From: an uncultured Deferribacteres bacterium
GTDB taxonomy: Bacteria; Zhuqueibacterota; Zhuqueibacteria; Zhuqueibacterales; Geothermadaptataceae
Direction of reading: 5' to 3'
NCBI GenBank assembly: GCA_964014485.1
Contig: CAXHAT010000220.1
Location: forward strand, 1-11,771
DNA: 11,771 bases
In this document: one piece after another, positions 2 through 10,990 of the stretch
Numbering within the stretch: position 1 is the first letter of the stretch
Layout of the letters: every line of letters begins with the position of its first letter
Made by a program: the position numbers and the translations under genes
Notes under the pieces: generated by a model
The model's database searches: none
Told to the model about the DNA's origin: nothing
Seen by the model: the letters and a program-made list of their open reading frames with translations, nothing else

Positions 2-1234
2 GTGAGTCGCTATGACGGCCAAAGCTGGACCACTTTTACCAGAGCTGATGGTTTGTCTTACAACAACGTCACCGCTATTATAGAAGACAGCAATGGCGCG
101 ATCTGGTTTGGTACAACTAAAGGGGTGAGCCGCTATAACGGCCAAAGCTGGACCTCTTTCACCATGCCTGATGTTGACTGGGAAAATTCCAATGTTGTTA
201 TTTCCATGGCGGAAGACGGTAACGGCGCGCTCTGGTTTGGCGCCTATAGCGGCGTGAGTCGCTATGATGGCCAAAGCTGGACCCGCTTTACCGTGGTTAA
301 CGGCTTGTATAACATCTTTGTTCACGCCATTATCGAAGACAGCAACGGCGCGCTTTGGTTTGGTATGATGGGCGGCGCGAGACGCTACGACGGTCAAAGT
401 TGGACCACCTTTACCGAAGCTGACGGCCTGGCTGACAACGACGTTAACGCCATTTTCAAAGACAGCAATGGAGGACTCTGGTTTGGAACAGACAACGGCA
501 TGAGTCGCTATGATGGCCGAAGCTGGACCACTTTTACAACAGCAGACGGTTTGGCTAGTAATTTAGTTCTGGCTATTGTCGAGGATCGTACTAGCGCAAT
601 CTGGTTTGGAACTGGGGGGGGCGGCGTGAGTCGCTATGACGGTCAAAACTGGACCACCTTTACTAAAGCTGACGGTTTGGTTAGCAACTCAGTTCGTGCT
701 ATTGTCGAAGATAGCAACGATGCTCTCTGGTTTGGTACAAACGACGGCGTAAGTCGTTATAACGAGCAAAGTTGGACCACTTTTACCATAGATAACGGTC
801 TGACTCACAACGACGTTAACGCCATTTTCAAAGACAGCAATGGAAGACTCTGGTTTGGAACAGATGACGGTGTAAGTCGCTATGACGGGCAAAGCTGGAC
901 CACCTTTACCGAATCTGACGGTTTGGCTGATAACAATGTTTTGGCCATTGCAGAAGACGGCAACGGTGCGCTCTGGTTTGGTACATTTGGTAGCGTGAGT
1001 CGCTATGACGGCCAAAGCTGGACTACCTTTATCCAAGCTCCCTTTTTGTTCGATCCTCTCACCATTACTAAAGACAGCAACGGCGCGCTTTGGTTTGGTA
1101 CACATGCTAGCGTAAGCCGTTATGACGGCCAGAGCTTGACTACCATTATCGAAGATCATGATTTAGCTGGCAGCATGGTGCACGCCATTGCAGAAGACGG
1201 CGAAGGCGCGCTTTGGATTGGTACATCCGGTGGG
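2..1234 (+). repeat. Intragenic tandem array of ten ~123-bp propeller-blade repeats
   Basis: Units with consensus gtgagtcgctatgacggccaaagctggacc start at 2, 125, 254, 377, 500, 626, 749, 872, 995 and 1112. Unit lengths are 117-129 bp, all multiples of 3. Confidence 0.95.
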
Positions 1235-2611
1235 GTGTCGCGGTTATCAGACATTGTCTCGCCACGAGTGAGTTTTCTCATTACACCTGGTGCATTGACC
1301 GGGAACATTTCGCCCTTATTCAACTACGTCGGTAATGACAATCTTGCTCCTGCAAGCAAACTTTTTTTTGCTTGGGAACTCGAGGGAGAAGGCGGTTTGG
1401 CGGCTTCTGGAGATTGGTCATTGGCAACTAGCGTGACACTCCCGCCTTTACAGGACGGTGAGTACACTTTCACTGTAAAGGCGAAAGACTTTTTTAATAA
1501 TGTCACTGGCAAACCGCCACGCTACTCCTTCCGAGTTGACGCTACGCAACCTACGGTTATATTTAACTCCCACAAAAGCAAAGACCAGATCGCCGATTCA
1601 GCCGCAATCATTGGTAATGCGTTTGATTCATCCCCGATTCAGGATTTTATTCGCTACGATCTGCACTACGGCTTTGGCCGAGATACATCCCAAGTCGTCT
1701 GGCAGTCTGAGCATCTTTCTCGCCTGCGCCCAACAGAAGAAATCTTCAACGATACGCTCGCTGTCTGGCATACTGACGAGCTTCCCAACGGCCCGTATTG
1801 GCTTCGCCTGAGCGCCATCGATAGCCTCGGCCACACGAGCACGGTCTATCTCGATGTCGAAGTGGTCGAATCCGCTGTCGACGTTAACCGCGAAAAAGGC
1901 GTAAAACAAACAACCGCTGACATCGACATCTTCCTGCCGCCCAACGCTATCTCAGAAGACGCTCGTCTCATCGTCCGCACCTGTCAAATGGATGAGATCA
2001 CGCTCTTCGATTCAACCGGCGTCACCTTCGCCAACTATTGCTTTGCCGTCGAGTTCGATGAGTTGGTATCATCATCCTTCATTCAGGAATTCAACAAACC
2101 GGCCACGCTCAGTCTGAGCTATAAAGATTCTATTCCTGCTGGCATCGATGAAAGCAAGCTCGCTCTCTACTACTCCGAAGACGGCATGAGCAATTGGCAG
2201 CGGTTGGGCGGGTTGGTGAATCAAACTGAAAAGAAAATCACCGCCGTGTTCAAAAAGCCTGGCTATTTCGGCCTGTATAAAGACCTAAGCGAAGGCACGG
2301 AAACCGGCCTTTTCGATCTCGATATTCAGCCGCGCGTGTTCTCGCCTAACAGTTCCGGTCTGCGTTCTTCCGTGGATATTTCCTACACGCTCGGTAAGGC
2401 GAGCAATGTCACTTGCAAAATCTACAACGCCGCAGGTCGACTCATCGCCATACTCGGTGAAAACGAACCTAGAAACCGCGGCGTCAACGTCGAGCAATGG
2501 AACGGCCTCGACCTGCGACAACAAACCTGCCCCAGCGGGTTATATGTCGTCACAGTTCAAGCAGACGGCAAGACAAAGATAAAGACGGTAGCTGTGATGG
2601 CTACGAAGTAG
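2..2611 (+). CDS. 5'-truncated beta-propeller (Reg_prop-type repeats) surface protein with Ig-like, ZU5-like and C-terminal FlgD-Ig domains
   Basis: Ten ~41-aa repeats (VSRYDGQSWTTFT..DGL..N.V.AI.EDSNGALWFGT). These are followed by an Ig/Y_Y_Y-like region (LQDGEYTFTVKAKD), a second beta-sandwich (LPNGPYWLRLSAID), a ZU5-like region (FLPPNAI...FNKPATLSLSY...WQRLGG) and an FlgD-Ig-like tail (PRVFSPN...KIYNAAGRLI...WNGLD...PSGLYVV). The frame is open at the window edge and the GTG at 2 is a Val within a repeat. Confidence 0.9.
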   Translation: MSRYDGQSWTTFTRADGLSYNNVTAIIEDSNGAIWFGTTKGVSRYNGQSWTSFTMPDVDWENSNVVISMAEDGNGALWFGAYSGVSRYDGQSWTRFTVVNGLYNIFVHAIIEDSNGALWFGMMGGARRYDGQSWTTFTEADGLADNDVNAIFKDSNGGLWFGTDNGMSRYDGRSWTTFTTADGLASNLVLAIVEDRTSAIWFGTGGGGVSRYDGQNWTTFTKADGLVSNSVRAIVEDSNDALWFGTNDGVSRYNEQSWTTFTIDNGLTHNDVNAIFKDSNGRLWFGTDDGVSRYDGQSWTTFTESDGLADNNVLAIAEDGNGALWFGTFGSVSRYDGQSWTTFIQAPFLFDPLTITKDSNGALWFGTHASVSRYDGQSLTTIIEDHDLAGSMVHAIAEDGEGALWIGTSGGVSRLSDIVSPRVSFLITPGALTGNISPLFNYVGNDNLAPASKLFFAWELEGEGGLAASGDWSLATSVTLPPLQDGEYTFTVKAKDFFNNVTGKPPRYSFRVDATQPTVIFNSHKSKDQIADSAAIIGNAFDSSPIQDFIRYDLHYGFGRDTSQVVWQSEHLSRLRPTEEIFNDTLAVWHTDELPNGPYWLRLSAIDSLGHTSTVYLDVEVVESAVDVNREKGVKQTTADIDIFLPPNAISEDARLIVRTCQMDEITLFDSTGVTFANYCFAVEFDELVSSSFIQEFNKPATLSLSYKDSIPAGIDESKLALYYSEDGMSNWQRLGGLVNQTEKKITAVFKKPGYFGLYKDLSEGTETGLFDLDIQPRVFSPNSSGLRSSVDISYTLGKASNVTCKIYNAAGRLIAILGENEPRNRGVNVEQWNGLDLRQQTCPSGLYVVTVQADGKTKIKTVAVMATK

Positions 2612-2682
2612 TTCTGTAGAAAGTCTGTTCATCTTGATCAAGCTTCAAAAGTTTATCTAATAATCTCCAATGGAGGGATAAA

Positions 2683-3678
2683 ATGGAAAACAAATACTCG
2701 ATTGCTCTTGTTGGCGGCCTGAGTATCTCTGTTATTATTATTGTTCTAATTTGGACGAATCTGCAAAAGCCGCCTGAGCCTCAAAATGTTGTTGGATCAG
2801 AAATAGAAATTGTCAATATAATCGTCAATGATTCGCTTTATGGTAACAATGATGGAGTTTTGAACCCGAACGAGACCGTCGGCTTGCGATTTGTGATCAG
2901 AAATCTCAGCGACGCGCCTATTCCGGCAAGCGAAGGCATTATTGAGTCCAACCAACAAGGCATTGTTATCTTAGACTCTACTGCTTTATTCCCCGCCATA
3001 CCAGCAGGTTCAATAGTCACGGCGGAGGAAGAGTTTATGTGCTTTGTTGAGAGCTCAGCCGCGCAGGGAAATGCGATATTCTTCCTAAAATTAGATGCTG
3101 GTGATCTTGTATTTACTGCGTTCAGAGCATTGGATGTACTCCACAACATTTTTGCCTGCATCGCGAGGACGCGACTTTTTCCTGCTAGCCGATCCGGCGC
3201 AAGAGATACCCTTAAGATTCGCCTTTCAATATGTAACCAATTGACATTGCCCACCCAACCTTACAACCCGGTTCAATATGTGAGCATAGATGATGTAGCA
3301 GTTGTAATTCCTGCGGATACAATTCGGAGTTGTGTCGCCGACACGGCGATCGATGCCCGACCGCTCTTCATGACTGTGCCGTGCGGCTTCCCGAATACGA
3401 TTCCCTTGAACGAAATTTTCTATGGCACTATTGCCAAAAGATACTGTCAGGATCCAGCATTCCCCTGTCGAAACATGACATCGAGCGGATGTCCGCTGCT
3501 GCCAGTTCATATCTATGATTTTGAATTTAGCGTCAAACCTGGAGAGCTAACGCAGAATTCGTGCATCAGGTTCATTGCTGAAATATGGTCCAATTCAATT
3601 GTAGATTCTTCAACTTGTCGCATTTCTCGAAATAATCACGAATATACGATAGACGTATTTAGTCGAATATCAAATTAG
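2683..3678 (+). CDS. Membrane-anchored hypothetical protein with an Ig-like domain and a Cys-rich C-terminal domain
   Basis: RBS GGAGG at 2672-2676. N-terminal hydrophobic helix (IALVGGLSISVIIIVLIW). Motif DSLYGNNDGVLNPNETVGLRFVIRN resembles a Ca-binding loop preceding an Ig-like fold. 10 Cys, 9 of them after residue ~155. Confidence 0.8.
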   Translation: MENKYSIALVGGLSISVIIIVLIWTNLQKPPEPQNVVGSEIEIVNIIVNDSLYGNNDGVLNPNETVGLRFVIRNLSDAPIPASEGIIESNQQGIVILDSTALFPAIPAGSIVTAEEEFMCFVESSAAQGNAIFFLKLDAGDLVFTAFRALDVLHNIFACIARTRLFPASRSGARDTLKIRLSICNQLTLPTQPYNPVQYVSIDDVAVVIPADTIRSCVADTAIDARPLFMTVPCGFPNTIPLNEIFYGTIAKRYCQDPAFPCRNMTSSGCPLLPVHIYDFEFSVKPGELTQNSCIRFIAEIWSNSIVDSSTCRISRNNHEYTIDVFSRISN

Positions 3679-3683
3679 CATAT

Positions 3684-6023
3684 ATGAGAGTACGGATTTT
3701 ATCACTTGTTGTATTGTTACCAGCTTTTTACGACTGTCAAAAAGTGATAGCACAAGAATATTGGGCGCGCTTGGTTGAGCCGGAATTAGCCTCGAATTTT
3801 GTCTGGACCATAATAGACTCCGCCGATGTCATGTGGTTTGGGACAGAAAAGGGCATAAGTCGATATTATAACGGTCAAATCACTAATAATTTTCAGCCAG
3901 GGACTGATGTTCGCTCTAGTCTTCATGCAAAAGACAATAGCCTGTGGTTCGGTACCTTTGGGAACGGTGCATACCGTTACAAAAATGGAATTTGGGATCC
4001 CTTCACAGTTGCAAGCACGGATAGCGGTCTTGCTAACGATAGCGTTTTAGCCATCACCCAACTAGACTCTTCGGTTTTATGCTTCGGGACAAAAGGCGGG
4101 GGGATATCCTGTTTAAAGGATGGTAGATGGTGGCAATATTCGCGACAAAACGGGCTTATTAGTGATACAATATTGGCGCTCGAAGCATCAAAAGACGGTT
4201 CACTTTGGGCTGGAACTTTGGGCTATGGGCTTAGTCGGATGTCAGACGGCCAGTGGACGACTTATACGAACGCTGAAGGTTTATTAAGTGATACTGTTCC
4301 AATCATTCATGAATCTCAAGACGGCTATATTTGGGCCGGAACGAGTGCGGGAGCAAGCCGATTCAAACATGGAAAATGGGAAAATTTTACTGTTAATCAT
4401 GGCCTTGTCTCGAACTATATTATAGCTATAGAAGAAACCAGGGATGACGCACTTTGGCTCGGCACGTTCGGCGGAGGCATAAGTCGTTTTCAAGATGGCG
4501 AGTGGTTAAACTTTACAATTTCTAAAAATCCTGGGCTCCGAGACAGTATTATCTATGCAATCGGGGAATCCGCTGATGGGGGAATTTGGTTTGGAACACA
4601 GAAAGGGGTCCATAGATTAGAACCAGACACGACTCCTCCATCAAAGACGATGATTATTGAGAAACCGCCCGCCATATCAGGTACTTCAACGCCTCTTTTT
4701 CGTTTCTCGGGCGAGGATAATCGTACCGAACAAGCAAAGCTGCGTTATTTATGGCGAGTTTCGAAGATAGGAGCAGACATCACATTTTCCGGAGAAACAA
4801 GCTTTACGGCAATCAGTCCGTTTGAAGAGATTCAAGATAGCCTTGAAAGTGTCATTAATGGGGATTATAAGTTTTTTGTCAATACAAAAGACGCTTGGAG
4901 AAACGTGGACATAAGCGGTGATAGTAGTATTTTTAAAATCGATACTACGCCTCCTACAGTCACGATAAATTCCTTTAAATCGGAAGACAGGATTGCCGGT
5001 TCCGTGCAAATCGTTGGCAACGCTTATGACGATTCGCCTATTCACGATTTTAAATCTTATAAATTACATTATGGTTTTGGCGAGGACAGCTCGCTCGTCG
5101 ACTGGAAAGACGACAATCTTATCGACTTGCGTCCAAATACAGAAGTTCGCGATGATGTTTTAGCCGTTTGGAACACCACTGGCCTCCGGAACGGTCCGTA
5201 TTGGCTTCGTTTAAGCGCAGTGGACGCACTCAATCATGGAAGCGTCGTCGCTCTCAAAGTAGAGGTTGTTGAGTCAAGCGTTCAACTCAATAGCGATCGG
5301 GACACTACATTCACGGCTGCTAACGATTCAATTAAACTGTTCGTGCCTGCAAAAGCGCTGTCTCAAGACGTTGAATTGATCGTACGCTCATGTAAAAACC
5401 ATGAGTTAAGCGCAGACACTTTACAAGGCGCATCTTATCTAGGCTTTTGCATTGCAATCAAGACTTTAAAGAATAATCGGGAGCAAGAATATCTGAAATT
5501 CAACAAACCAATAACATTAGATTTGACATACCCCGACTTGCCGTTTACTGAATCTGACGAAATGAATCTCACCATATTTTACTCGCCAACCGGGGAAGAA
5601 GACACGTGGCAACGATTGGGGGGAACTGTGAAGAATGACTCAAATCAAATAACTCTTGCCGTTAAATGGACGGGCCATTTTGCCTTACTTAAGGACCGAC
5701 TAATTCCCCACAAAGCAGATATTTTGGATCTTGAGATCCAGCCAAGGATATTCTCGCCCAAAAGTACTCGTGCTCGAAGTTATATCGATATCTCGTACTG
5801 GCTTGTCAATGCAAGCAACGTTACTTGCAAAATCTATAACACCGCTGGTCGGCTCATCGCCATTCTCGGCGAAAACGAACCCAGAAACCGCGGCATCAAC
5901 GTCGAACAATGGAACGGCCTCGATCTGCGCCAACAAACCTGCCCCAGCGGGTTGTACGTAGTCACGGTTCAAGCTGACGGCAAAACTGAAATGAAGACGG
6001 TGGCGGTTATGCGGGATCAATAG
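3684..6023 (+). CDS. Secreted beta-propeller protein, paralogue of 2..2611 (about 7 blades, Ig-like, ZU5-like, FlgD-Ig)
   Basis: Signal-peptide-like N-terminus (MRVRILSLVVLLPAF...), about seven diverged WFGT/WAGT blades, same domain order as ORF 2..2611, shared NGPYWLRLSA and WQRLGG motifs, near-identical C-terminal 67 aa. Starts 5 bp after the previous stop. Confidence 0.9.
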   Translation: MRVRILSLVVLLPAFYDCQKVIAQEYWARLVEPELASNFVWTIIDSADVMWFGTEKGISRYYNGQITNNFQPGTDVRSSLHAKDNSLWFGTFGNGAYRYKNGIWDPFTVASTDSGLANDSVLAITQLDSSVLCFGTKGGGISCLKDGRWWQYSRQNGLISDTILALEASKDGSLWAGTLGYGLSRMSDGQWTTYTNAEGLLSDTVPIIHESQDGYIWAGTSAGASRFKHGKWENFTVNHGLVSNYIIAIEETRDDALWLGTFGGGISRFQDGEWLNFTISKNPGLRDSIIYAIGESADGGIWFGTQKGVHRLEPDTTPPSKTMIIEKPPAISGTSTPLFRFSGEDNRTEQAKLRYLWRVSKIGADITFSGETSFTAISPFEEIQDSLESVINGDYKFFVNTKDAWRNVDISGDSSIFKIDTTPPTVTINSFKSEDRIAGSVQIVGNAYDDSPIHDFKSYKLHYGFGEDSSLVDWKDDNLIDLRPNTEVRDDVLAVWNTTGLRNGPYWLRLSAVDALNHGSVVALKVEVVESSVQLNSDRDTTFTAANDSIKLFVPAKALSQDVELIVRSCKNHELSADTLQGASYLGFCIAIKTLKNNREQEYLKFNKPITLDLTYPDLPFTESDEMNLTIFYSPTGEEDTWQRLGGTVKNDSNQITLAVKWTGHFALLKDRLIPHKADILDLEIQPRIFSPKSTRARSYIDISYWLVNASNVTCKIYNTAGRLIAILGENEPRNRGINVEQWNGLDLRQQTCPSGLYVVTVQADGKTEMKTVAVMRDQ

Positions 6024-6089: not shown

Positions 6090-6112
6090 AAAAGCGGAGT
6101 CGTATCGCTTTT
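6090..6112 (+). terminator. Weak possible hairpin downstream of the propeller cluster
   Basis: AAAAGCG-N9-CGCTTTT. The GC stem is very short. Confidence 0.25.
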
Positions 6113-6168
6113 GTAGTTTGTATCCGCGTTCTTAATTCGCATTTATTAGTAGTCGCGGTCGAATAATC

Positions 6169-6311
6169 GTGAGCGTCCGGTGAACCCCGTCTTGCATTTT
6201 TCGTTTTGAATCGACTTCAGTTGACGAGATTTTTTTCCGGGAATGATCGGCGATACAGGCGAACATGTCACGAAACCAAGCGAAGGGTTCGGGATCATTG
6301 ATCTTGGAGTG
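6169..6311 (-). mobile_element. IS66-family remnant: TnpC C-terminal fragment plus degenerate right terminal repeat
   Basis: Minus-strand peptide KINDPEPFAWFRDMFACIADHSRKK (6305 to 6231) fits the IS66 TnpC C-terminal pattern K.NG..P..WL.DVL.RI.DH. GTGAGCGTCCGGTGAAC at 6169-6185 resembles the GTAAGCGTCCGG-type IS66 end and lies just downstream of that fragment. Confidence 0.7.
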
Positions 6312-6444
6312 GGAAGAATTAAAAAAAGTGGAAGGCGACACCGATACTCAAATCTCGACGATGGATGGGTACTATAGAAAGGGTTTATTAGCGTCATTTT
6401 AGCGTTAAAATCTGTCTATTCCTGTCCACATTTGTCCCTGCCCT

Positions 6445-6476
6445 AAAATAAAAAGGGAATCAAAGCTGATTCCCTT
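6445..6476 (-). terminator. Rho-independent terminator downstream of the tRNA fragment
   Basis: Perfect 10-bp stem AAGGGAATCA (6453-6462) / TGATTCCCTT (6467-6476) with a 4-nt loop, followed on the minus strand by a T-rich run. It lies about 30 nt past the tRNA 3' end. Confidence 0.7.
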
Positions 6477-6503
6477 GTGTCGTAAAAACAAGTATTTACG
6501 CAA

Positions 6504-6546
6504 GTAGCGGGGGGCGGATTTGAACCACCGACCTTCGGGTTATGAG
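6504..6546 (-). pseudogene. 3' half of initiator tRNA-Met(CAT); att core, not a complete tRNA
   Basis: Minus strand reads CTCATAA CCCGA AGGTC GGTGG TTCAAAT CCGCC CCCCGCT AC: anticodon loop, 3' anticodon stem, variable loop, T arm and 3' acceptor strand of tRNA-fMet. Upstream (GAAATATCGTTGGT) there is no D arm or 5' acceptor strand. Confidence 0.92.
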
Positions 6547-6707
6547 ACCAACGATATTTCGAAAAAACGAACGTAAGTCATTGTTTTTTAGTACGGCTTT
6601 GAAAATCATGCGTCATTTTAGCGTTATTTTTTGAAATGTTCTCCAGTGGATTTAAATCTCGTGCTCCGACCGGACTGATACGCTTGGAACATTATCCGGT
6701 TTTCTGA

Positions 6708-6748
6708 TTGCATTGTTCTGTTTTTCTACATATAATTATTTGTGTAGA
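6708..6748 (+). promoter_or_regulatory. sigma70 promoter of abiE with overlapping palindromic operator
   Basis: TTGCAT (6708-6713), 17-bp spacer, TATAAT (6731-6736). Inverted repeat TCTACATA-N8-TGTGTAGA (6725-6748, 7 of 8 match) straddles the -10. Confidence 0.75.
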
Positions 6749-6767
6749 CTAAAGTGCGATACTCACG

Positions 6768-7364
6768 ATGAATGAAGCCCTCAAACAATTCCGAAAACAC
6801 GACGGCTACGCTTTTCTCAAAGAGCTAAAGCAAAACAACGTCCACACCAGTTCCATCCGGCGCTGGCTTGAAGAAGGGGTTATCGAAAAGGTCAAGCCCG
6901 GACTGTACAAGCTATCCGACATGCCGGTTCTTGCCCATCAGGGCATGATCGACGTCTGTATGGCCATGCCCGGCGCCGTCGTCTGCCTGCATTCCGCTCT
7001 CGCCTTCTACGAACTAACGACAACCGTCCCGTCGTCAATCATGATTGCGCTGCCGCGGGCGAGCAAGCCGGTCAAGCTAAATTACCCGCCGATGCAGGTC
7101 TTTCATTTTTCCGAAGCCAACTATCGCACCGGCATTGAGAACGTCCGTGCGGAAACCGGCGGCTTCAAAATTTATTCGCGCGAAAAAACGATTGCGGATT
7201 GCTTTCGTTATCGCAACAAGCTCGGCCTGGATGTGGCGATTGAAGGCCTAAGGAACTATCTGAACTCACCGGGGAGCGATGTCAACAGACTTGCTGAAAT
7301 CGCCAAAAGCGGCAGAATGTACCGCGTCATGAAACCGTATCTGGAAGCGCTGCTGCAGCGATAA
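6768..7364 (+). CDS. abiEi: Type IV TA / abortive infection antitoxin, AbiEi family
   Basis: N-terminal wHTH-like region (GVIEKVKPGLYKL), VVCLHSALAFYELTT..P, IYSREKTIADCFRYRNKLGLDVAIEGL, MKPYLEAL. Coupled to the next gene by a TAATG overlap. Confidence 0.92.
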   Translation: MNEALKQFRKHDGYAFLKELKQNNVHTSSIRRWLEEGVIEKVKPGLYKLSDMPVLAHQGMIDVCMAMPGAVVCLHSALAFYELTTTVPSSIMIALPRASKPVKLNYPPMQVFHFSEANYRTGIENVRAETGGFKIYSREKTIADCFRYRNKLGLDVAIEGLRNYLNSPGSDVNRLAEIAKSGRMYRVMKPYLEALLQR

Positions 7365-8215
7365 TGAAGAGACGAATTAAGAACATTGGCGCATCCGTTC
7401 GACGCCGTTTGCTGGAGAAAGCGAAAAAACAGGGCGTCGACTTTAATCGTTTACTTCTGTTGTATGTCCAGGAACGATTTCTCTATCGACTCACGCACTC
7501 TCAGTACAGAAACGCCTTTGTCTTGAAGGGCGGCGCTCTTTTCTATGCCGCGCATCATTTGCAGGCGAGACCCACCAGAGACCTGGACTTTCTCGCCGGA
7601 AAAATCCCCAGCCAGCCGGAAGCCTTTGGAAAAGTGCTCCGGGACGTTGTCGCAGTTGAAGTCGCGGATGGGGTTGTTTTCGATGCGGATTCGATCTCGT
7701 GTCAAGCGATCACGGAAGGCGCAATGTATGAAGGCGTACGCGCGAAAGTAACGGCGCATCTCGAAGCCGCGCGGCAAACGCTCCAAATAGACGCAGGCTT
7801 TGGCGACGTCGTAACGCCGAAGCCAGTGCATTTTGAATTCCCGTCTCTTCTTGACGACAAGGACTTTGCGATACAAGCATATTCGTGGGAATCAGTAATC
7901 GCGGAGAAGTTTGAAGCGATTGTCAAACTGGGGGATGTGAACAGCCGCATGAAGGATTTTTATGATATTTGGTTCCTGCTCGCCAATCATGAATTCGAAC
8001 AGGAAATACTAAATGAGGCCATTACTGCGACTTTCAAGCATCGCAAAACGAATTTGGGTGATGCGTGGTACATTTTCAAAGCATCGTTCTACAATGATCC
8101 GGATAAAGAAAAAATGTGGGCGGCGTTTTTTCGAAAAAACGGTATGATCAAGACGAGATCATTCTCGGAAATCGTGCTCGAAATCATGAGCCGTTTGAAA
8201 GCGCTTAAGGGATAG
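7364..8215 (+). CDS. abiEii: AbiEii-family nucleotidyltransferase toxin
   Basis: Motifs ERFLYRL, FVLKGG, RPTRDLD, IDAGFGD, IAEKF, NSRMKDFYD. Confidence 0.93.
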   Translation: MKRRIKNIGASVRRRLLEKAKKQGVDFNRLLLLYVQERFLYRLTHSQYRNAFVLKGGALFYAAHHLQARPTRDLDFLAGKIPSQPEAFGKVLRDVVAVEVADGVVFDADSISCQAITEGAMYEGVRAKVTAHLEAARQTLQIDAGFGDVVTPKPVHFEFPSLLDDKDFAIQAYSWESVIAEKFEAIVKLGDVNSRMKDFYDIWFLLANHEFEQEILNEAITATFKHRKTNLGDAWYIFKASFYNDPDKEKMWAAFFRKNGMIKTRSFSEIVLEIMSRLKALKG

Positions 8216-8452: not shown

Positions 8453-8742
8453 AAAATCCAACCGAGATAAAAACCTGCTGAAAAAGTCGCCGGATGAAAA
8501 ATTCTTGAGCGCGGCGGAAATCAGGCGTTTCAGACGATAGATTTTTCTATTGGAAAACCAAAGATTGAGAAAGCTCGTAAAAAATCAGTGGACTCATTGC
8601 TCCCCTTTGTATTTCATATTTACCATGATGGGGCTGCTCTCTTCCTGACTCTGAGCTGACAAGACCGCCTGAAGGCCTTTCTTGATAAGTCCCGTATATT
8701 TCCGATGTGTACAGAGAACTTTCCCAAAAGCGAGACCATGTT

Positions 8743-10047
8743 ATGAAGCGCTTCATTACGAAGATTTTCGTCTTGACGTCAGTCGTGAGTTCCTTTGCTC
8801 AGACGCTGCGAATTTACCACATCGACGTCGATCAAGCGGACGCCACTCTATTCGTATCGCCAAGCGGACAAACGCTTTTGGTTGACAGCGGCCGAAACGG
8901 TCATGGAGACCGGATTCGCGCAGTGATGCAGGAAGCCGGCGTCGCTCAAATCGACCATTTTGTTGCAACGCATTATCATGAAGATCATTACGGCGGCGTC
9001 GACGATCTTCTTGACGTCCCGGCTGTCACGATTGTTAACGCCTATGATCGCGGGGATAAAGCCGCGATAGACTCGACCCGACTCAACTCAGACACGTACA
9101 GAGACTATGATGCGGCCGTGGGACATAGAGCGGAACAGCTGACGCGCGGAGAGATGATCCCGCTTGATCCGCTCATGCGAGTCACCTGCATCTCTTCCGG
9201 CGGGGTCGTCCTGTCTGAACAAGACCCGGTGCAGCACGGGGAAGATGAAAATGACATGAGCGTTTCACTGCTCATTCAGTTTGGCGACTTCCGTTACTTC
9301 ACTGGCGGCGATATAGAAACGGCGACCGAACAGAAAATCGCTGATCGCAATTTGGTGACGGATGTAGACGTTTACCAGGCAAATCATCACGGGGCGGACA
9401 ATGGCTCGTCTCTACCGTTTATAGAAGACATGCAGCCAAGAGTGATCGTTATTTCGAACGGGACAAATCGGAGATTTCGACATCCTCGCGAGACTGTATT
9501 GGCTCGCATGTCCGGTCTGAATTCAAATCCTGCCATATTTCAAACCAATAAGTACCTAAACGCTGCAAACGATAATGGCGGTAACGTCCCTGACCAATTT
9601 ATCGGCGATTTAGAATCTTCAGATGCAGACGGCACTATTCTTTTGACGGTGAATCAAACGACTCGCAGCTATACAGTCGCCTATCGGACGGAGTCGAGAA
9701 CGTTTGCTATTAAGAATCGCTCGTCAATCATTATTGAGAGCCTTTTGCCAGACCCTGTCGACGGATCAGATCGATTATTCGAAGAAGTGACGCTTAGAAA
9801 CAATGGCGCTGCAGTTATCGGGATGCAAGGATGGTTTTTGCAGGACGAAAGCGGCAGGGTCTGGATTTTGAACGAAATGGGAGCTATTGCTCCGGGAGAG
9901 TCGGCGACCATTCGGCGGAACGGCATGCCGATGAGCCTCAACAACCGAGGCGACGTCATACGTTTGATCGGCGCGGACGCCAGGGAAATGGACTCTTTTC
10001 AGTACAACTCGTCTCAACCAGGCGTCAGGATTCAAACAGGGCATTGA
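8743..10047 (+). CDS. Secreted ComEC/Rec2-like metallo-beta-lactamase-fold hydrolase with C-terminal lamin-tail domain
   Basis: ATG at 8743 gives a signal peptide (MKRFITKIFVLTSVVSSFA-QTL). Motifs IDVDQADA, LVDSG, THYHEDHYGG (HxHxDH), ENDMS, FTGGD, NHHG, RHP. Tail IIESLLPDP...EEVTLRN...GWFLQD...LNNRGDVIRL is lamin-tail-like. No Competence membrane domain. Confidence 0.88.
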   Translation: MKRFITKIFVLTSVVSSFAQTLRIYHIDVDQADATLFVSPSGQTLLVDSGRNGHGDRIRAVMQEAGVAQIDHFVATHYHEDHYGGVDDLLDVPAVTIVNAYDRGDKAAIDSTRLNSDTYRDYDAAVGHRAEQLTRGEMIPLDPLMRVTCISSGGVVLSEQDPVQHGEDENDMSVSLLIQFGDFRYFTGGDIETATEQKIADRNLVTDVDVYQANHHGADNGSSLPFIEDMQPRVIVISNGTNRRFRHPRETVLARMSGLNSNPAIFQTNKYLNAANDNGGNVPDQFIGDLESSDADGTILLTVNQTTRSYTVAYRTESRTFAIKNRSSIIIESLLPDPVDGSDRLFEEVTLRNNGAAVIGMQGWFLQDESGRVWILNEMGAIAPGESATIRRNGMPMSLNNRGDVIRLIGADAREMDSFQYNSSQPGVRIQTGH

Positions 10048-10207
10048 TTTTTGCAGGTACATCCCCAATGAGAGCCGCCAATCTTGTTTTCGCAAACAGC
10101 CAATCTTGCTGAGCGGCGTTTTTATGACCAGCATCGAATAAAACAATGTCTAAAAATACCGAACCGCTTCTTTATTGGTGTCAGTTACGATTTAATTGAG
10201 AGTATAC

Positions 10208-10990
10208 ATGCGCAAATTCTTATTGCTTCTGATCAGCCTGGTTCTTTCAGCGTGCTCGGCAACATCTTCAAAAAATAACCGGAAGAGTCCCGAGCAGCTT
10301 ACAGTTCTTGCCTACAACATTCGGCATGGGGAAGGCATGGATAACAAGATTGATTTACAAAGGATTGCCGATGTGATTTCAAAGGTGAATCCTGACCTCG
10401 TTGCGCTGCAGGAGGTGGATAAATTCTGCAAGAGAAGCGGTCAGCGCGATCTTGCCCGGGAACTCGGCGAAATGTTGGGAATGCAGCATCGGTTTGGCAA
10501 GTTCATGGACTATCAGGGCGGAGAATACGGCATGGCCGTTCTCTCCAGGTTTCCAATCATCCATACGATTCGTCACGCCTTGCCCGACGGAGCGGAACCT
10601 CGTTGCGCCCTTGAAGTGCAAGTACAAGCGCCTGATCTGCCGTCGCCTTTATCCTTTATAAGCATTCATAACGATTGGACAAATGAAGACATTCGCGTAC
10701 GGCAAGTAGAAGCCCTTTTAAAGGCTTTGGAAAAACGTGACAACCCAATCATTATGGCGGGTGATTTCAATGGCGAGCGCTCGGATAAGTCCATGCAGAA
10801 GATCAAATATCAGGGCTGGAATATTTTGAATAAGAAGCAAAAGACTTTTCCAGCCGACAAACCCAGAGTCGAAATCGATTTTATCGTGTTAAAGAACTTC
10901 CCGGAATTTTTATTTGAGCAGCAAGTTGTCGATGAGCGAATCGCATCAGACCACAGACCTGTTCTCGCAGCAATAGCCGTTTCAAAATAG
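10208..10990 (+). CDS. Endonuclease/exonuclease/phosphatase (EEP) family lipoprotein
   Basis: ATG at 10208 gives MRKFLLLLISLVLSA-C (lipobox LSAC). Motifs YNIRHG, LQEVD, GDFN, IDFI, SDHRPV. Confidence 0.92.
   Translation: MRKFLLLLISLVLSACSATSSKNNRKSPEQLTVLAYNIRHGEGMDNKIDLQRIADVISKVNPDLVALQEVDKFCKRSGQRDLARELGEMLGMQHRFGKFMDYQGGEYGMAVLSRFPIIHTIRHALPDGAEPRCALEVQVQAPDLPSPLSFISIHNDWTNEDIRVRQVEALLKALEKRDNPIIMAGDFNGERSDKSMQKIKYQGWNILNKKQKTFPADKPRVEIDFIVLKNFPEFLFEQQVVDERIASDHRPVLAAIAVSK

What the first reader, a model, noticed from the sequence alone, without database searches (positions are those of the whole stretch)
6391..6626. Two-armed attP-like site around a half tRNA-fMet, with no integrase in view
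Seen: the 43-bp tRNA 3' fragment is flanked on both sides by the same 17-mer (6391-6407 and 6610-6626, itself a doublet GCGTCA/GCGTTA spaced 11 bp). It is also flanked by an inverted pair AAAAACAA-N4-TTACG (13/17 identical) resembling the IHF consensus WATCAA-N4-TTR. Known: tyrosine integrases targeting tRNAs use arm-type repeats and IHF sites, and attL or attR normally carry only one arm. Inference: this is attP-like, so it is a junction between tandem islands, an excised circle, or a non-autonomous element mobilised in trans. DNA on both sides could then be element cargo. Both neighbours of the site are non-integrase sequences.
Basis: partly seen in the sequence, partly recalled or inferred. 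Interest (0 to 1): 0.75.

Follow-up and report, generated by a model that had tools for sequence, protein, structure and literature searches.

The report
Orphan two-armed att site at half tRNA-fMet
A leftover half of an initiator tRNA gene is flanked on both sides by the same 17-base repeat, as in the docking site of an integrating mobile element, but no integrase lies nearby, so it is most likely an ordinary scar where such elements piled up or decayed.

Summary
The core observation holds. On the minus strand, 6546->6504 is an exact copy of an initiator tRNA-Met gene from the anticodon loop to C74. It matches 30 intact genes in public genomes. The 5' half is absent and ARAGORN finds no tRNA in the window. 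The 17-mer occurs exactly twice, at 6391-6407 and 6610-6626. None of 1000 shuffles of the flanks gave a shared exact match of 17. The IHF-like inverted pair exists (6484-6500, 6572-6588) but is barely above chance (43 of 1000 shuffles). The 236-bp layout matches published attP sites: a tRNA-derived core, a terminator, and a pair of 11-bp units on each arm (PMC3203893). None of the 41 ORFs of at least 60 aa has a recombinase domain. To the right lies a complete AbiEi/AbiEii pair. To the left lie about 280 bp without a supported gene, then secreted-protein genes. My best reading (0.55) is an internal, attP-like junction of accreted or decayed islands at tRNA-fMet, which is a known kind. The window's genome is not in the searchable collection, so the decisive tests could not be run.

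The parts
6391..6407 (+). Left copy of the exact 17-mer (11-bp units GCGTCATTTTA + GCGTTA...). Candidate arm-type integrase site on the arm downstream of the tRNA piece (P'-like).
   Evidence: Protein binding is inferred, not tested.
6443..6476 (-). Terminator-like hairpin (10 pairs, 4-nt loop) followed by a T-run. It lies 28 nt past the discriminator base of the tRNA piece.
   Evidence: All 30 intact tRNA-fMet genes compared also have a hairpin plus T-run after the gene. CrimD attP has a terminator between core and arm pair (PMC3203893 passage).
6484..6500 (+). Left member of the inverted pair AAAAACAA-N4-TTACG. It matches the IHF consensus with 1 mismatch.
   Evidence: Only marginally above chance (43 of 1000 shuffles).
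6504..6546 (-). Core: 43 nt identical to initiator tRNA-Met(CAT) genes, from the first base of the anticodon loop to C74. It is followed by TT instead of CA, so no CCA is encoded.
6547..6554 (-). Imperfect continuation of the tRNA likeness (6 of 8 bases) into the 5' strand of the anticodon stem. Beyond it there is no tRNA sequence.
   Evidence: 51-nt alignments at 96.1%.
6572..6588 (-). Right member of the inverted pair AAAAACAA-N4-TTACG.
6610..6626 (+). Right copy of the exact 17-mer. Here the second 11-bp unit reads GCGTTATTTTT. Candidate arm-type site on the arm upstream of the tRNA piece (P-like).
6113..6390 (.). Stretch without a supported gene, between the terminator of gene 3684-6023 and the left 17-mer. 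An integrase gene would be expected here in a phage-like attP. It holds a weak IS66 transposase C-terminal-like motif (ORF 6132-6341, minus strand).
   Evidence: (PF13817, E 7.5e-4, 20.1 bits, below the cut-off of 30). The motif was not confirmed.
6768..8215 (+). abiEi (6768-7364) and abiEii (7364-8215): a complete type IV toxin-antitoxin / abortive-infection pair, the first genes to the right of the site. Typical island cargo.
   Evidence: AbiEii E 1.1e-46; AbiEi E 1.3e-63, AbiEii E 1.1e-94.

Best explanation
6391-6626 is an attP-type, two-armed attachment site of a tyrosine-integrase element that targets the initiator tRNA-Met gene at its anticodon loop. In its present place it is an orphan: an internal junction of the kind the literature calls a chimerical 'attI'. 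It lies between the distal end of an island on the right (which starts with abiEi/abiEii) and what remains of an earlier, related element on the left.

In tRNA orientation (minus strand), the right flank is the P arm of the tRNA-proximal island. The 43-nt core plus terminator plus left 17-mer is the P' arm that the earlier element once supplied to rebuild the tRNA gene. The earlier element has lost its integrase module. About 280 bp with no supported gene (6113-6390) lie where that module would be expected.

The paired 11-bp units in the 17-mer would bind the N-terminal arm-binding domain of an integrase made elsewhere. The site could still recombine only if such an enzyme is supplied in trans.

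Shown: the tRNA-derived core, its sharp limits, the exact 17-mer on both flanks, the terminator-like hairpin, the absence of any recombinase gene in 11.8 kb, and the AbiE pair.
Inferred: that the 17-mer is an arm-type site, that the left flank is element-derived, and the order of events.
For: - The core is exact and starts at the anticodon loop, one of the two classes of tRNA crossover site tabulated by Islander (Table 1 of PMC4383910, read as a passage, counts 2083 anticodon-centred sites among 3919 islands).
- The right flank cannot be native, because the 5' half of the tRNA is missing.
- An exact 17-mer is shared by the two flanks: 0 of 1000 shuffles reach it, and there are only 2 copies in 11.8 kb.
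- It sits 96 and 63 bp from the core within a 236-bp span. It is built of two units 11 bp apart, with a terminator between the core and one pair. Passages in PMC3203893 describe this for CrimD, with direct pairs in L5 and Giles.
- The gene next to the right arm is a complete AbiE defence/TA pair.
- Tandem accretion with decayed, integrase-less elements and a chimerical internal att site is described as frequent (PMC5704250 passage). Islander counted 125 tandems among 3919 islands.
- In one fetched locus an integrase-less 2.4-kb islet lies between an intact tRNA-fMet gene and a degenerate copy of its 3' part (L025).
Against: - No integrase, excisionase or any other mobility gene lies within 6.4 kb to the left or 5.1 kb to the right.
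- Only one repeat pair is statistically solid. The inverted IHF-like pair (43 of 1000 shuffles) and the 11-bp substructure (26 of 200) are not.
- The two 17-mers are 100% identical, spacer included, with sharp edges. That looks as much like a duplication as like two protein sites that have drifted apart.
- The left genes are surface or secreted proteins with T9SS sorting domains. These are ordinary chromosomal genes, and base composition does not separate left from right.
- A terminator after the tRNA end is also what a native flank has (30 of 30 loci).
- The missing CCA does not help. All 30 species with this exact 3' half encode CCA. However, Bacteroidetes/Chlorobi-type lineages, to which T9SS points, mostly do not (PMC5143459 passage).
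- The 17-mer is in 0 of the 30 fetched loci, so no independent example of it beside an att site exists.
- The IS66-like relic is unconfirmed.
Confidence: 0.55

Rival explanations
1. This is a plain distal end of a single island (P arm - core - native flank). The DNA left of 6504 is the original downstream flank of the tRNA-fMet gene with its own terminator. The left 17-mer is native or arose for an unrelated reason. The integrase sits at the far end of the island, beyond 11771, next to the rebuilt tRNA.
For: - The fragment is followed by a terminator, as in all 30 intact genes.
- The left genes look chromosomal.
- An integrase beside the rebuilt tRNA at the far end is the layout implied by CrimD, where the core lies to the 5' side of int (PMC3203893 passage).
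- No CCA would be normal for a T9SS-bearing lineage.
- 11-bp doublets just past the terminator also occur in 4 of the 30 fetched loci. One of them (L012) is followed by a convergent FtsY-like gene.
Against: It gives no reason for an exact 17-mer shared with the element-side flank (0 of 1000 shuffles).
Confidence: 0.2
2. The 17-mer is a regulatory operator: two 7-bp direct repeats with a 4-bp A/T spacer. In my recollection this is the layout bound by winged-helix regulators of the OmpR/PhoB type. Alternatively it is a site for AbiEi. Either way it would control transcription around the site and have nothing to do with recombination.
For: - The right copy lies 142 bp upstream of the abiEi start.
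- The tandem direct-repeat form is visible in the sequence.
Against: - The left copy, in the same orientation, points into the antisense of a terminator and a dead tRNA piece. No supported gene lies nearby.
- No further copies or half-sites lie in the abiE promoter region 6627-6767.
- AbiEi operators are inverted repeats next to the promoter (recalled, not checked in a paper).
Confidence: 0.1
3. The attP arrangement is real sequence but not the chromosomal state. The assembler either captured an excised circular form or joined the two ends of one island through the repeated 43-nt core.
For: - A 43-nt repeat is shorter than the word lengths assemblers commonly use (recalled, not checked here).
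- The window seems to come from an uncultured organism: there is no match in plasmids and its genome is not among 185,579 species representatives.
Against: In that case the integrase-proximal end of the same island should lie left of the site. No integrase or other mobility gene is seen there in 6.4 kb.
Confidence: 0.08
4. The two 17-mers are a duplication made by another event: the att core or target duplication of a second element, now reduced to the 202 bp between them. They are not protein-binding arm sites.
For: Identity is 100% over exactly 17 nt with abrupt edges and no flanking similarity.
Against: - The 202-bp insert has no terminal inverted repeats (sequence read) and no gene.
- It would be a coincidence that it is centred on a tRNA half at attP-like distances.
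- Target duplications as long as 17 bp are unusual (recalled).
Confidence: 0.07

Closest known systems
attP sites of tRNA/tmRNA-targeting heterobivalent tyrosine integrases of mycobacteriophages (CrimD and other Cluster K1 phages; L5; Giles)
   Same: - The common core is the 3' part of a tRNA-type gene.
- Pairs of 11-bp repeats flank the core, in direct orientation in L5 and Giles.
- A stem-loop terminator lies between the core and one pair.
(All from PMC3203893 passages.)
- From my recollection, not read here: L5 has a 43-bp core and an attP of about 250 bp.
   Different: - In those phages the integrase gene lies directly beside attP. Here no recombinase gene is found in 11.8 kb.
- There is no sequence similarity to any phage record beyond the tRNA part.
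- Binding of the 17-mer by an integrase is untested.
Internal 'attI' junctions of accreted islands, and cis-mobilizable elements (CIMEs) of the ICESt1/ICESt3 type
   Same: - The elements have lost integration and transfer genes but kept their att sites.
- A newcomer integrates in tandem at the same tRNA gene end.
- The result is a chimerical internal att site with element DNA on both sides.
(PMC5704250 passage.)
   Different: - Those cases are defined from whole genomes with both outer att sites and a helper element identified. Here only the internal site is visible.
- The outer sites, the intact tRNA and a helper integrase are outside the window.
Islander/TIGER-type genomic islands in tRNA genes with an anticodon-centred crossover site
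   Same: - A displaced 3' tRNA fragment marks an island end.
- The identity block begins at the anticodon loop.
- Tandem arrays are recognised (PMC4383910 passages and Table 1).
   Different: Islander requires an integrase gene and the intact tRNA in the same replicon. Neither can be shown here.

Membership tests
attP-type site of a heterobivalent tyrosine integrase | Core identical to the target tRNA gene over the segment from the crossover to the 3' end | tested here: met
   43 nt (6504-6546) are identical to 30 public tRNA-Met(CAT) genes (28 called intact by ARAGORN, 2 cut by a contig end) and begin at the anticodon loop. The host's own tRNA gene was not available.
attP-type site of a heterobivalent tyrosine integrase | Repeated arm-type sites on both arms, tens of bp from the core | tested here: inconclusive
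   An exact 17-mer with two units 11 bp apart lies on both flanks, 96 and 63 bp from the core. There is only one repeat family with two copies, and its internal doublet is not significant alone. Protein binding could not be tested.
attP-type site of a heterobivalent tyrosine integrase | Cognate tyrosine integrase gene adjacent to the site | tested here: not met
   0 of 41 ORFs of at least 60 aa has a recombinase domain. NCBIfam (15 ORFs) and PHROGs (14 ORFs) gave no integrase match either.
attP-type site of a heterobivalent tyrosine integrase | Sites for a DNA-bending accessory protein (IHF or similar) between core and arms | tested here: inconclusive
   Two consensus matches with 1 mismatch flank the core. 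Such matches are as common as chance in the window (12 found, 12.70 expected), and the inverted pair is reached in 43 of 1000 shuffles.
Tandem (accreted) islands with internal attI / CIME | Intact target tRNA gene plus further copies of the core that delimit each element in the same replicon | not testable with these tools
   The window has no intact tRNA and no second core. The genome is not in genome contigs.
Tandem (accreted) islands with internal attI / CIME | Element DNA on both sides of the internal site | tested here: inconclusive
   Right: an AbiEi/AbiEii pair. Left: about 280 bp without a supported gene, with an unconfirmed IS66-like motif, then T9SS-sorted proteins. Composition does not discriminate.
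IS66-family insertion sequence (relic at 6132-6341) | Recognisable transposase sequence | tested here: not met
   Only PF13817 at 20.1 bits (cut-off 30) over 26 residues. There was no tblastn match in plasmids and no hit among 1.84 billion representative proteins at E up to 0.001.

The most novel reading that the evidence does not exclude
The site is a working attP kept by an integrase-less element: a CIME- or satellite-like unit in an uncultured bacterium with T9SS cargo. That unit would be excised, moved and re-inserted at tRNA-fMet by an integrase supplied in trans. The exact conservation of both 17-mers would reflect selection for that hijacking. A bolder variant is a recent cross-phylum origin. 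The core is letter-for-letter the tRNA-fMet of Desulfobacterota/Nitrospirota-type genomes, while the neighbouring genes carry sorting domains typical of the Bacteroidota relatives. The element would then have crossed phyla recently.
Probability: 0.1. Interest if true: 0.5.

Novelty: new member of a known kind. Interest (0 to 1): 0.27.

Why it matters
If the reading is right, the window shows how islands at a tRNA gene build up and decay. An att site with both arms survives after its integrase is gone, and it can still serve as a landing pad or be mobilised in trans. This helps to draw island borders correctly. The AbiE pair would then be cargo at the end of an island. It does not open a new question, because tandem accretion, decayed integrase-less elements and internal att sites are well described. 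The practical value is as an annotation and as a candidate arm-site motif for an uncharacterised integrase that targets tRNA-fMet.

Tried and rejected
- Genome of origin and relatives. I scanned genome contigs with the 42-mer 6505-6546 at 10-kb flanks. It returned 30 loci, all tRNA genes of other organisms (28 called intact, 2 cut by a contig end). None has the 17-mer. None shares other DNA with the window beyond a few short, weak blastn matches. tblastn with 14 window ORFs found no shared protein at E 1e-3. I scanned 52 of the 53 ORFs of at least 180 aa within 5 kb downstream; one antisense-overlapping ORF of L014 was left out. None had a recombinase domain at E 1e-5.\n- Phage and plasmid collections. 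Only the tRNA part matched (68 and 392 records, none covering 80% of the query). The whole window has no near match in plasmids. Two phage hits that looked like possible attP fragments (H9, H20) are intact tRNA genes.\n- IS66 relic. Not confirmed.\n- Missing CCA as proof that the left flank is element DNA. Rejected, because the likely host group often lacks encoded CCA.\n- Composition (GC3, trinucleotide profiles). No clear left/right break.\n- Rfam. No family reaches its gathering score in the window.\n- ESM Atlas, for the unexplained 331-aa protein. Only leads below 0.9.\n- listing of cluster members did not complete because the shared database is off.

Full report
**What is there.** Read on the minus strand, 6546->6505 runs from the anticodon loop (CTCATAA) through the variable region, the T arm and the 3' acceptor strand to the discriminator A of an initiator tRNA-Met. 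ARAGORN finds no tRNA in the window. Rfam gives only a sub-threshold tRNA match (17.9 bits, cut-off 29). The piece is therefore a gene fragment.

I scanned 185,579 species genomes with the 42-mer 6505-6546 and got 30 loci. In 28 the match lies inside an intact 77-nt tRNA-Met(CAT) gene. In the other 2 (L015, L021) the gene is cut by a contig end. Against these genes the window is identical over 6504-6546 (43 nt). It then matches 6 of 8 bases up to 6554 and nothing further. After the discriminator, all 30 genes read CCA, whereas the window reads CTT.

**The repeats.**
- The 17-mer lies at 6391-6407 and 6610-6626, on the same strand and 219 bp apart. The window holds no other copy even with 3 mismatches.
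- In 1000 dinucleotide-preserving shuffles of the two 158-nt flanks, the longest shared exact match was 13, never 17.
- The identity stops abruptly at both edges.
- Inside the 17-mer two units lie 11 bp apart (GCGTCATTTTA, GCGTTA...). That substructure is not significant alone (26 of 200 shuffles).
- The inverted pair AAAAACAA-N4-TTACG is real (6484-6500 +, 6572-6588 -). An inverted 14-of-17 match between such flanks arises in 43 of 1000 shuffles.
- One-mismatch matches to the IHF consensus are at the chance level in the window (12 found, 12.70 expected). I give this pair little weight.
- A terminator-like hairpin with a T-run lies on the minus strand at 6476->6443, just past the tRNA end.

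**Surroundings.**
- Left: two long proteins with Reg_prop beta-propeller repeats and T9SS type A sorting domains (2-2611 and 3684-6023). An Ig-like protein of unknown function lies between them.
- Then a + strand terminator at 6090-6112.
- Then about 280 bp without a supported gene. The only lead there is an IS66 transposase C-terminal motif (20.1 bits, below the Pfam cut-off). Neither tblastn against plasmids nor HMMER against 1.84 billion representative proteins confirmed it.
- Right: a complete AbiEi/AbiEii pair, then an MBL/ComEC-like protein with a lamin-tail domain, then an endonuclease/exonuclease/phosphatase protein.
- All 41 ORFs of at least 60 aa were scanned with Pfam and none has a recombinase domain.
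- PHROGs, scanned for 14 ORFs, gave one structural label (a tail-protein family) for the MBL/LTD protein 8707-10047 and otherwise only families of unknown function.

**How I read it.** The right flank cannot be the native neighbour of the tRNA, because the 5' half of the gene is missing. This is therefore a site-specific recombination junction at the anticodon loop. Islander lists that subsite for 2083 of its 3919 islands (Table 1 of PMC4383910, passage read).

An ordinary island end has one element arm and one native flank. Here the same exact 17-mer sits on both flanks, 96 and 63 bp from the core, and a terminator lies between the core and one copy. The whole is 236 bp long. The CrimD attP is described the same way: two pairs of 11-bp repeats flank the core, with a terminator between the core and one pair. 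The same passage reports direct pairs in L5 and Giles (PMC3203893).

The simplest account is that both flanks derive from elements served by one kind of integrase. That makes this an internal attP-like junction. Reviews describe such junctions as arising when a newcomer integrates beside a resident element that has decayed and lost its integrase. This 'accretion' with a 'CIME' gives a chimerical attI (PMC5704250 passage). The gene-poor 280 bp left of the site lie where the resident's integrase would have been. I put this reading at 0.55.

**What weakens it.**
- Only one repeat pair is solid. Its perfect identity, spacer included, with sharp edges, would also suit a duplication.
- The left genes look chromosomal, and composition does not split the window.
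- A terminator after the tRNA end is also the native state (30 of 30 loci).
- The missing CCA looked at first like proof that the left flank is not native. However, Bacteroidetes/Chlorobi-type lineages mostly do not template CCA (PMC5143459 passage), and the T9SS domains point that way.
- The exact 42-mer was found only in MAGs titled as Deltaproteobacteria/Desulfobacterales-type, Nitrospirae/Thermodesulfovibrio-type, Thermodesulfobacteriota-type or Deferribacteres bacteria, plus one titled only 'Bacterium'. The host lineage, and with it this argument, stays open.
- The 17-mer occurs in none of the 30 loci.
- None of the 52 scanned ORFs downstream of their tRNA-fMet genes is an integrase. I therefore have no independent example of this att system.

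**Rivals.**
- A plain island end with a native left flank (0.2).
- A regulatory operator unrelated to recombination (0.1).
- An assembly join or captured circle (0.08).
- A 17-bp duplication from another event (0.07).
Each is set out with its own test in the Rival explanations section.

**What could not be done.** The shared protein database is switched off.

**Verdict.** The attP-like interpretation is reasonable and is the best available, but it is unproven. It belongs to a well-known kind of structure (internal att sites of accreted or decayed islands), so the interest is modest.

Noticed in passing
window 6132-6341 (-): A short stretch (SKINDPEPFAWFRDMFACIADH...) resembles the C-terminal element of IS66 transposases (PF13817, E 7.5e-4, below the cut-off). 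tblastn on plasmids and HMMER on 1.84 billion representative proteins found nothing. It is either a very decayed relic or chance.
   Followed up: yes
window 2-2611 and 3684-6023 (+): Two paralogous surface proteins with Reg_prop propeller repeats (123-bp periodic DNA repeats at 1-1275). Their C-terminal T9SS type A sorting domains are 80% identical at the DNA level (2310-2599 against 5722-6011).
   Followed up: partly
window 8707-10047 and 10196-10990 (+): An MBL-fold/ComEC-like protein fused to a lamin-tail domain, followed by an endonuclease/exonuclease/phosphatase protein. There are weak PADLOC matches to candidate defence nucleases (PDC-M48B, LmuA). They may be secreted or defence nucleases next to AbiE.
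   Followed up: partly
L025 4838-7345: A 2.4-kb integrase-less islet lies between an intact tRNA-Met(CAT) gene and a degenerate 46-nt copy of its 3' part (87% identity). It holds an AAA_14/DUF4143 ATPase and two small ORFs.
   Followed up: partly
L001 555-633: The last 24 nt of the tRNA-fMet gene are repeated exactly, right after the gene. This may be a scar of recombination at the T-loop subsite.
   Followed up: no
L012, L023, L024, L025, 48-50 nt after the discriminator: 11-bp tandem doublets sharing TTGGT start just past the tRNA-fMet terminator at the same offset in four loci. Each is reached in 4 to 26 of 200 shuffles. In L012 a convergent FtsY-like gene follows. They may be arm sites of old elements or a native signal.
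   Followed up: partly
window 6504-6546 against 2-6023: The exact 42-mer of the tRNA piece occurs only in 30 of 185,579 species genomes. Most are titled as Deltaproteobacteria/Desulfobacterales-type or Nitrospirae/Thermodesulfovibrio-type MAGs, and all encode CCA. The window's neighbouring genes carry T9SS sorting domains, which are typical of Bacteroidota relatives. The host lineage is unresolved.
   Followed up: partly
window 8124-8141: A perfect 18-bp palindrome (CGTTTTTTCGAAAAAACG) lies inside the 3' end of abiEii. It matches 6552-6569, next to the tRNA piece, at 16 of 18 bases. By my rough estimate about three such pairs are expected by chance in the window.
   Followed up: no
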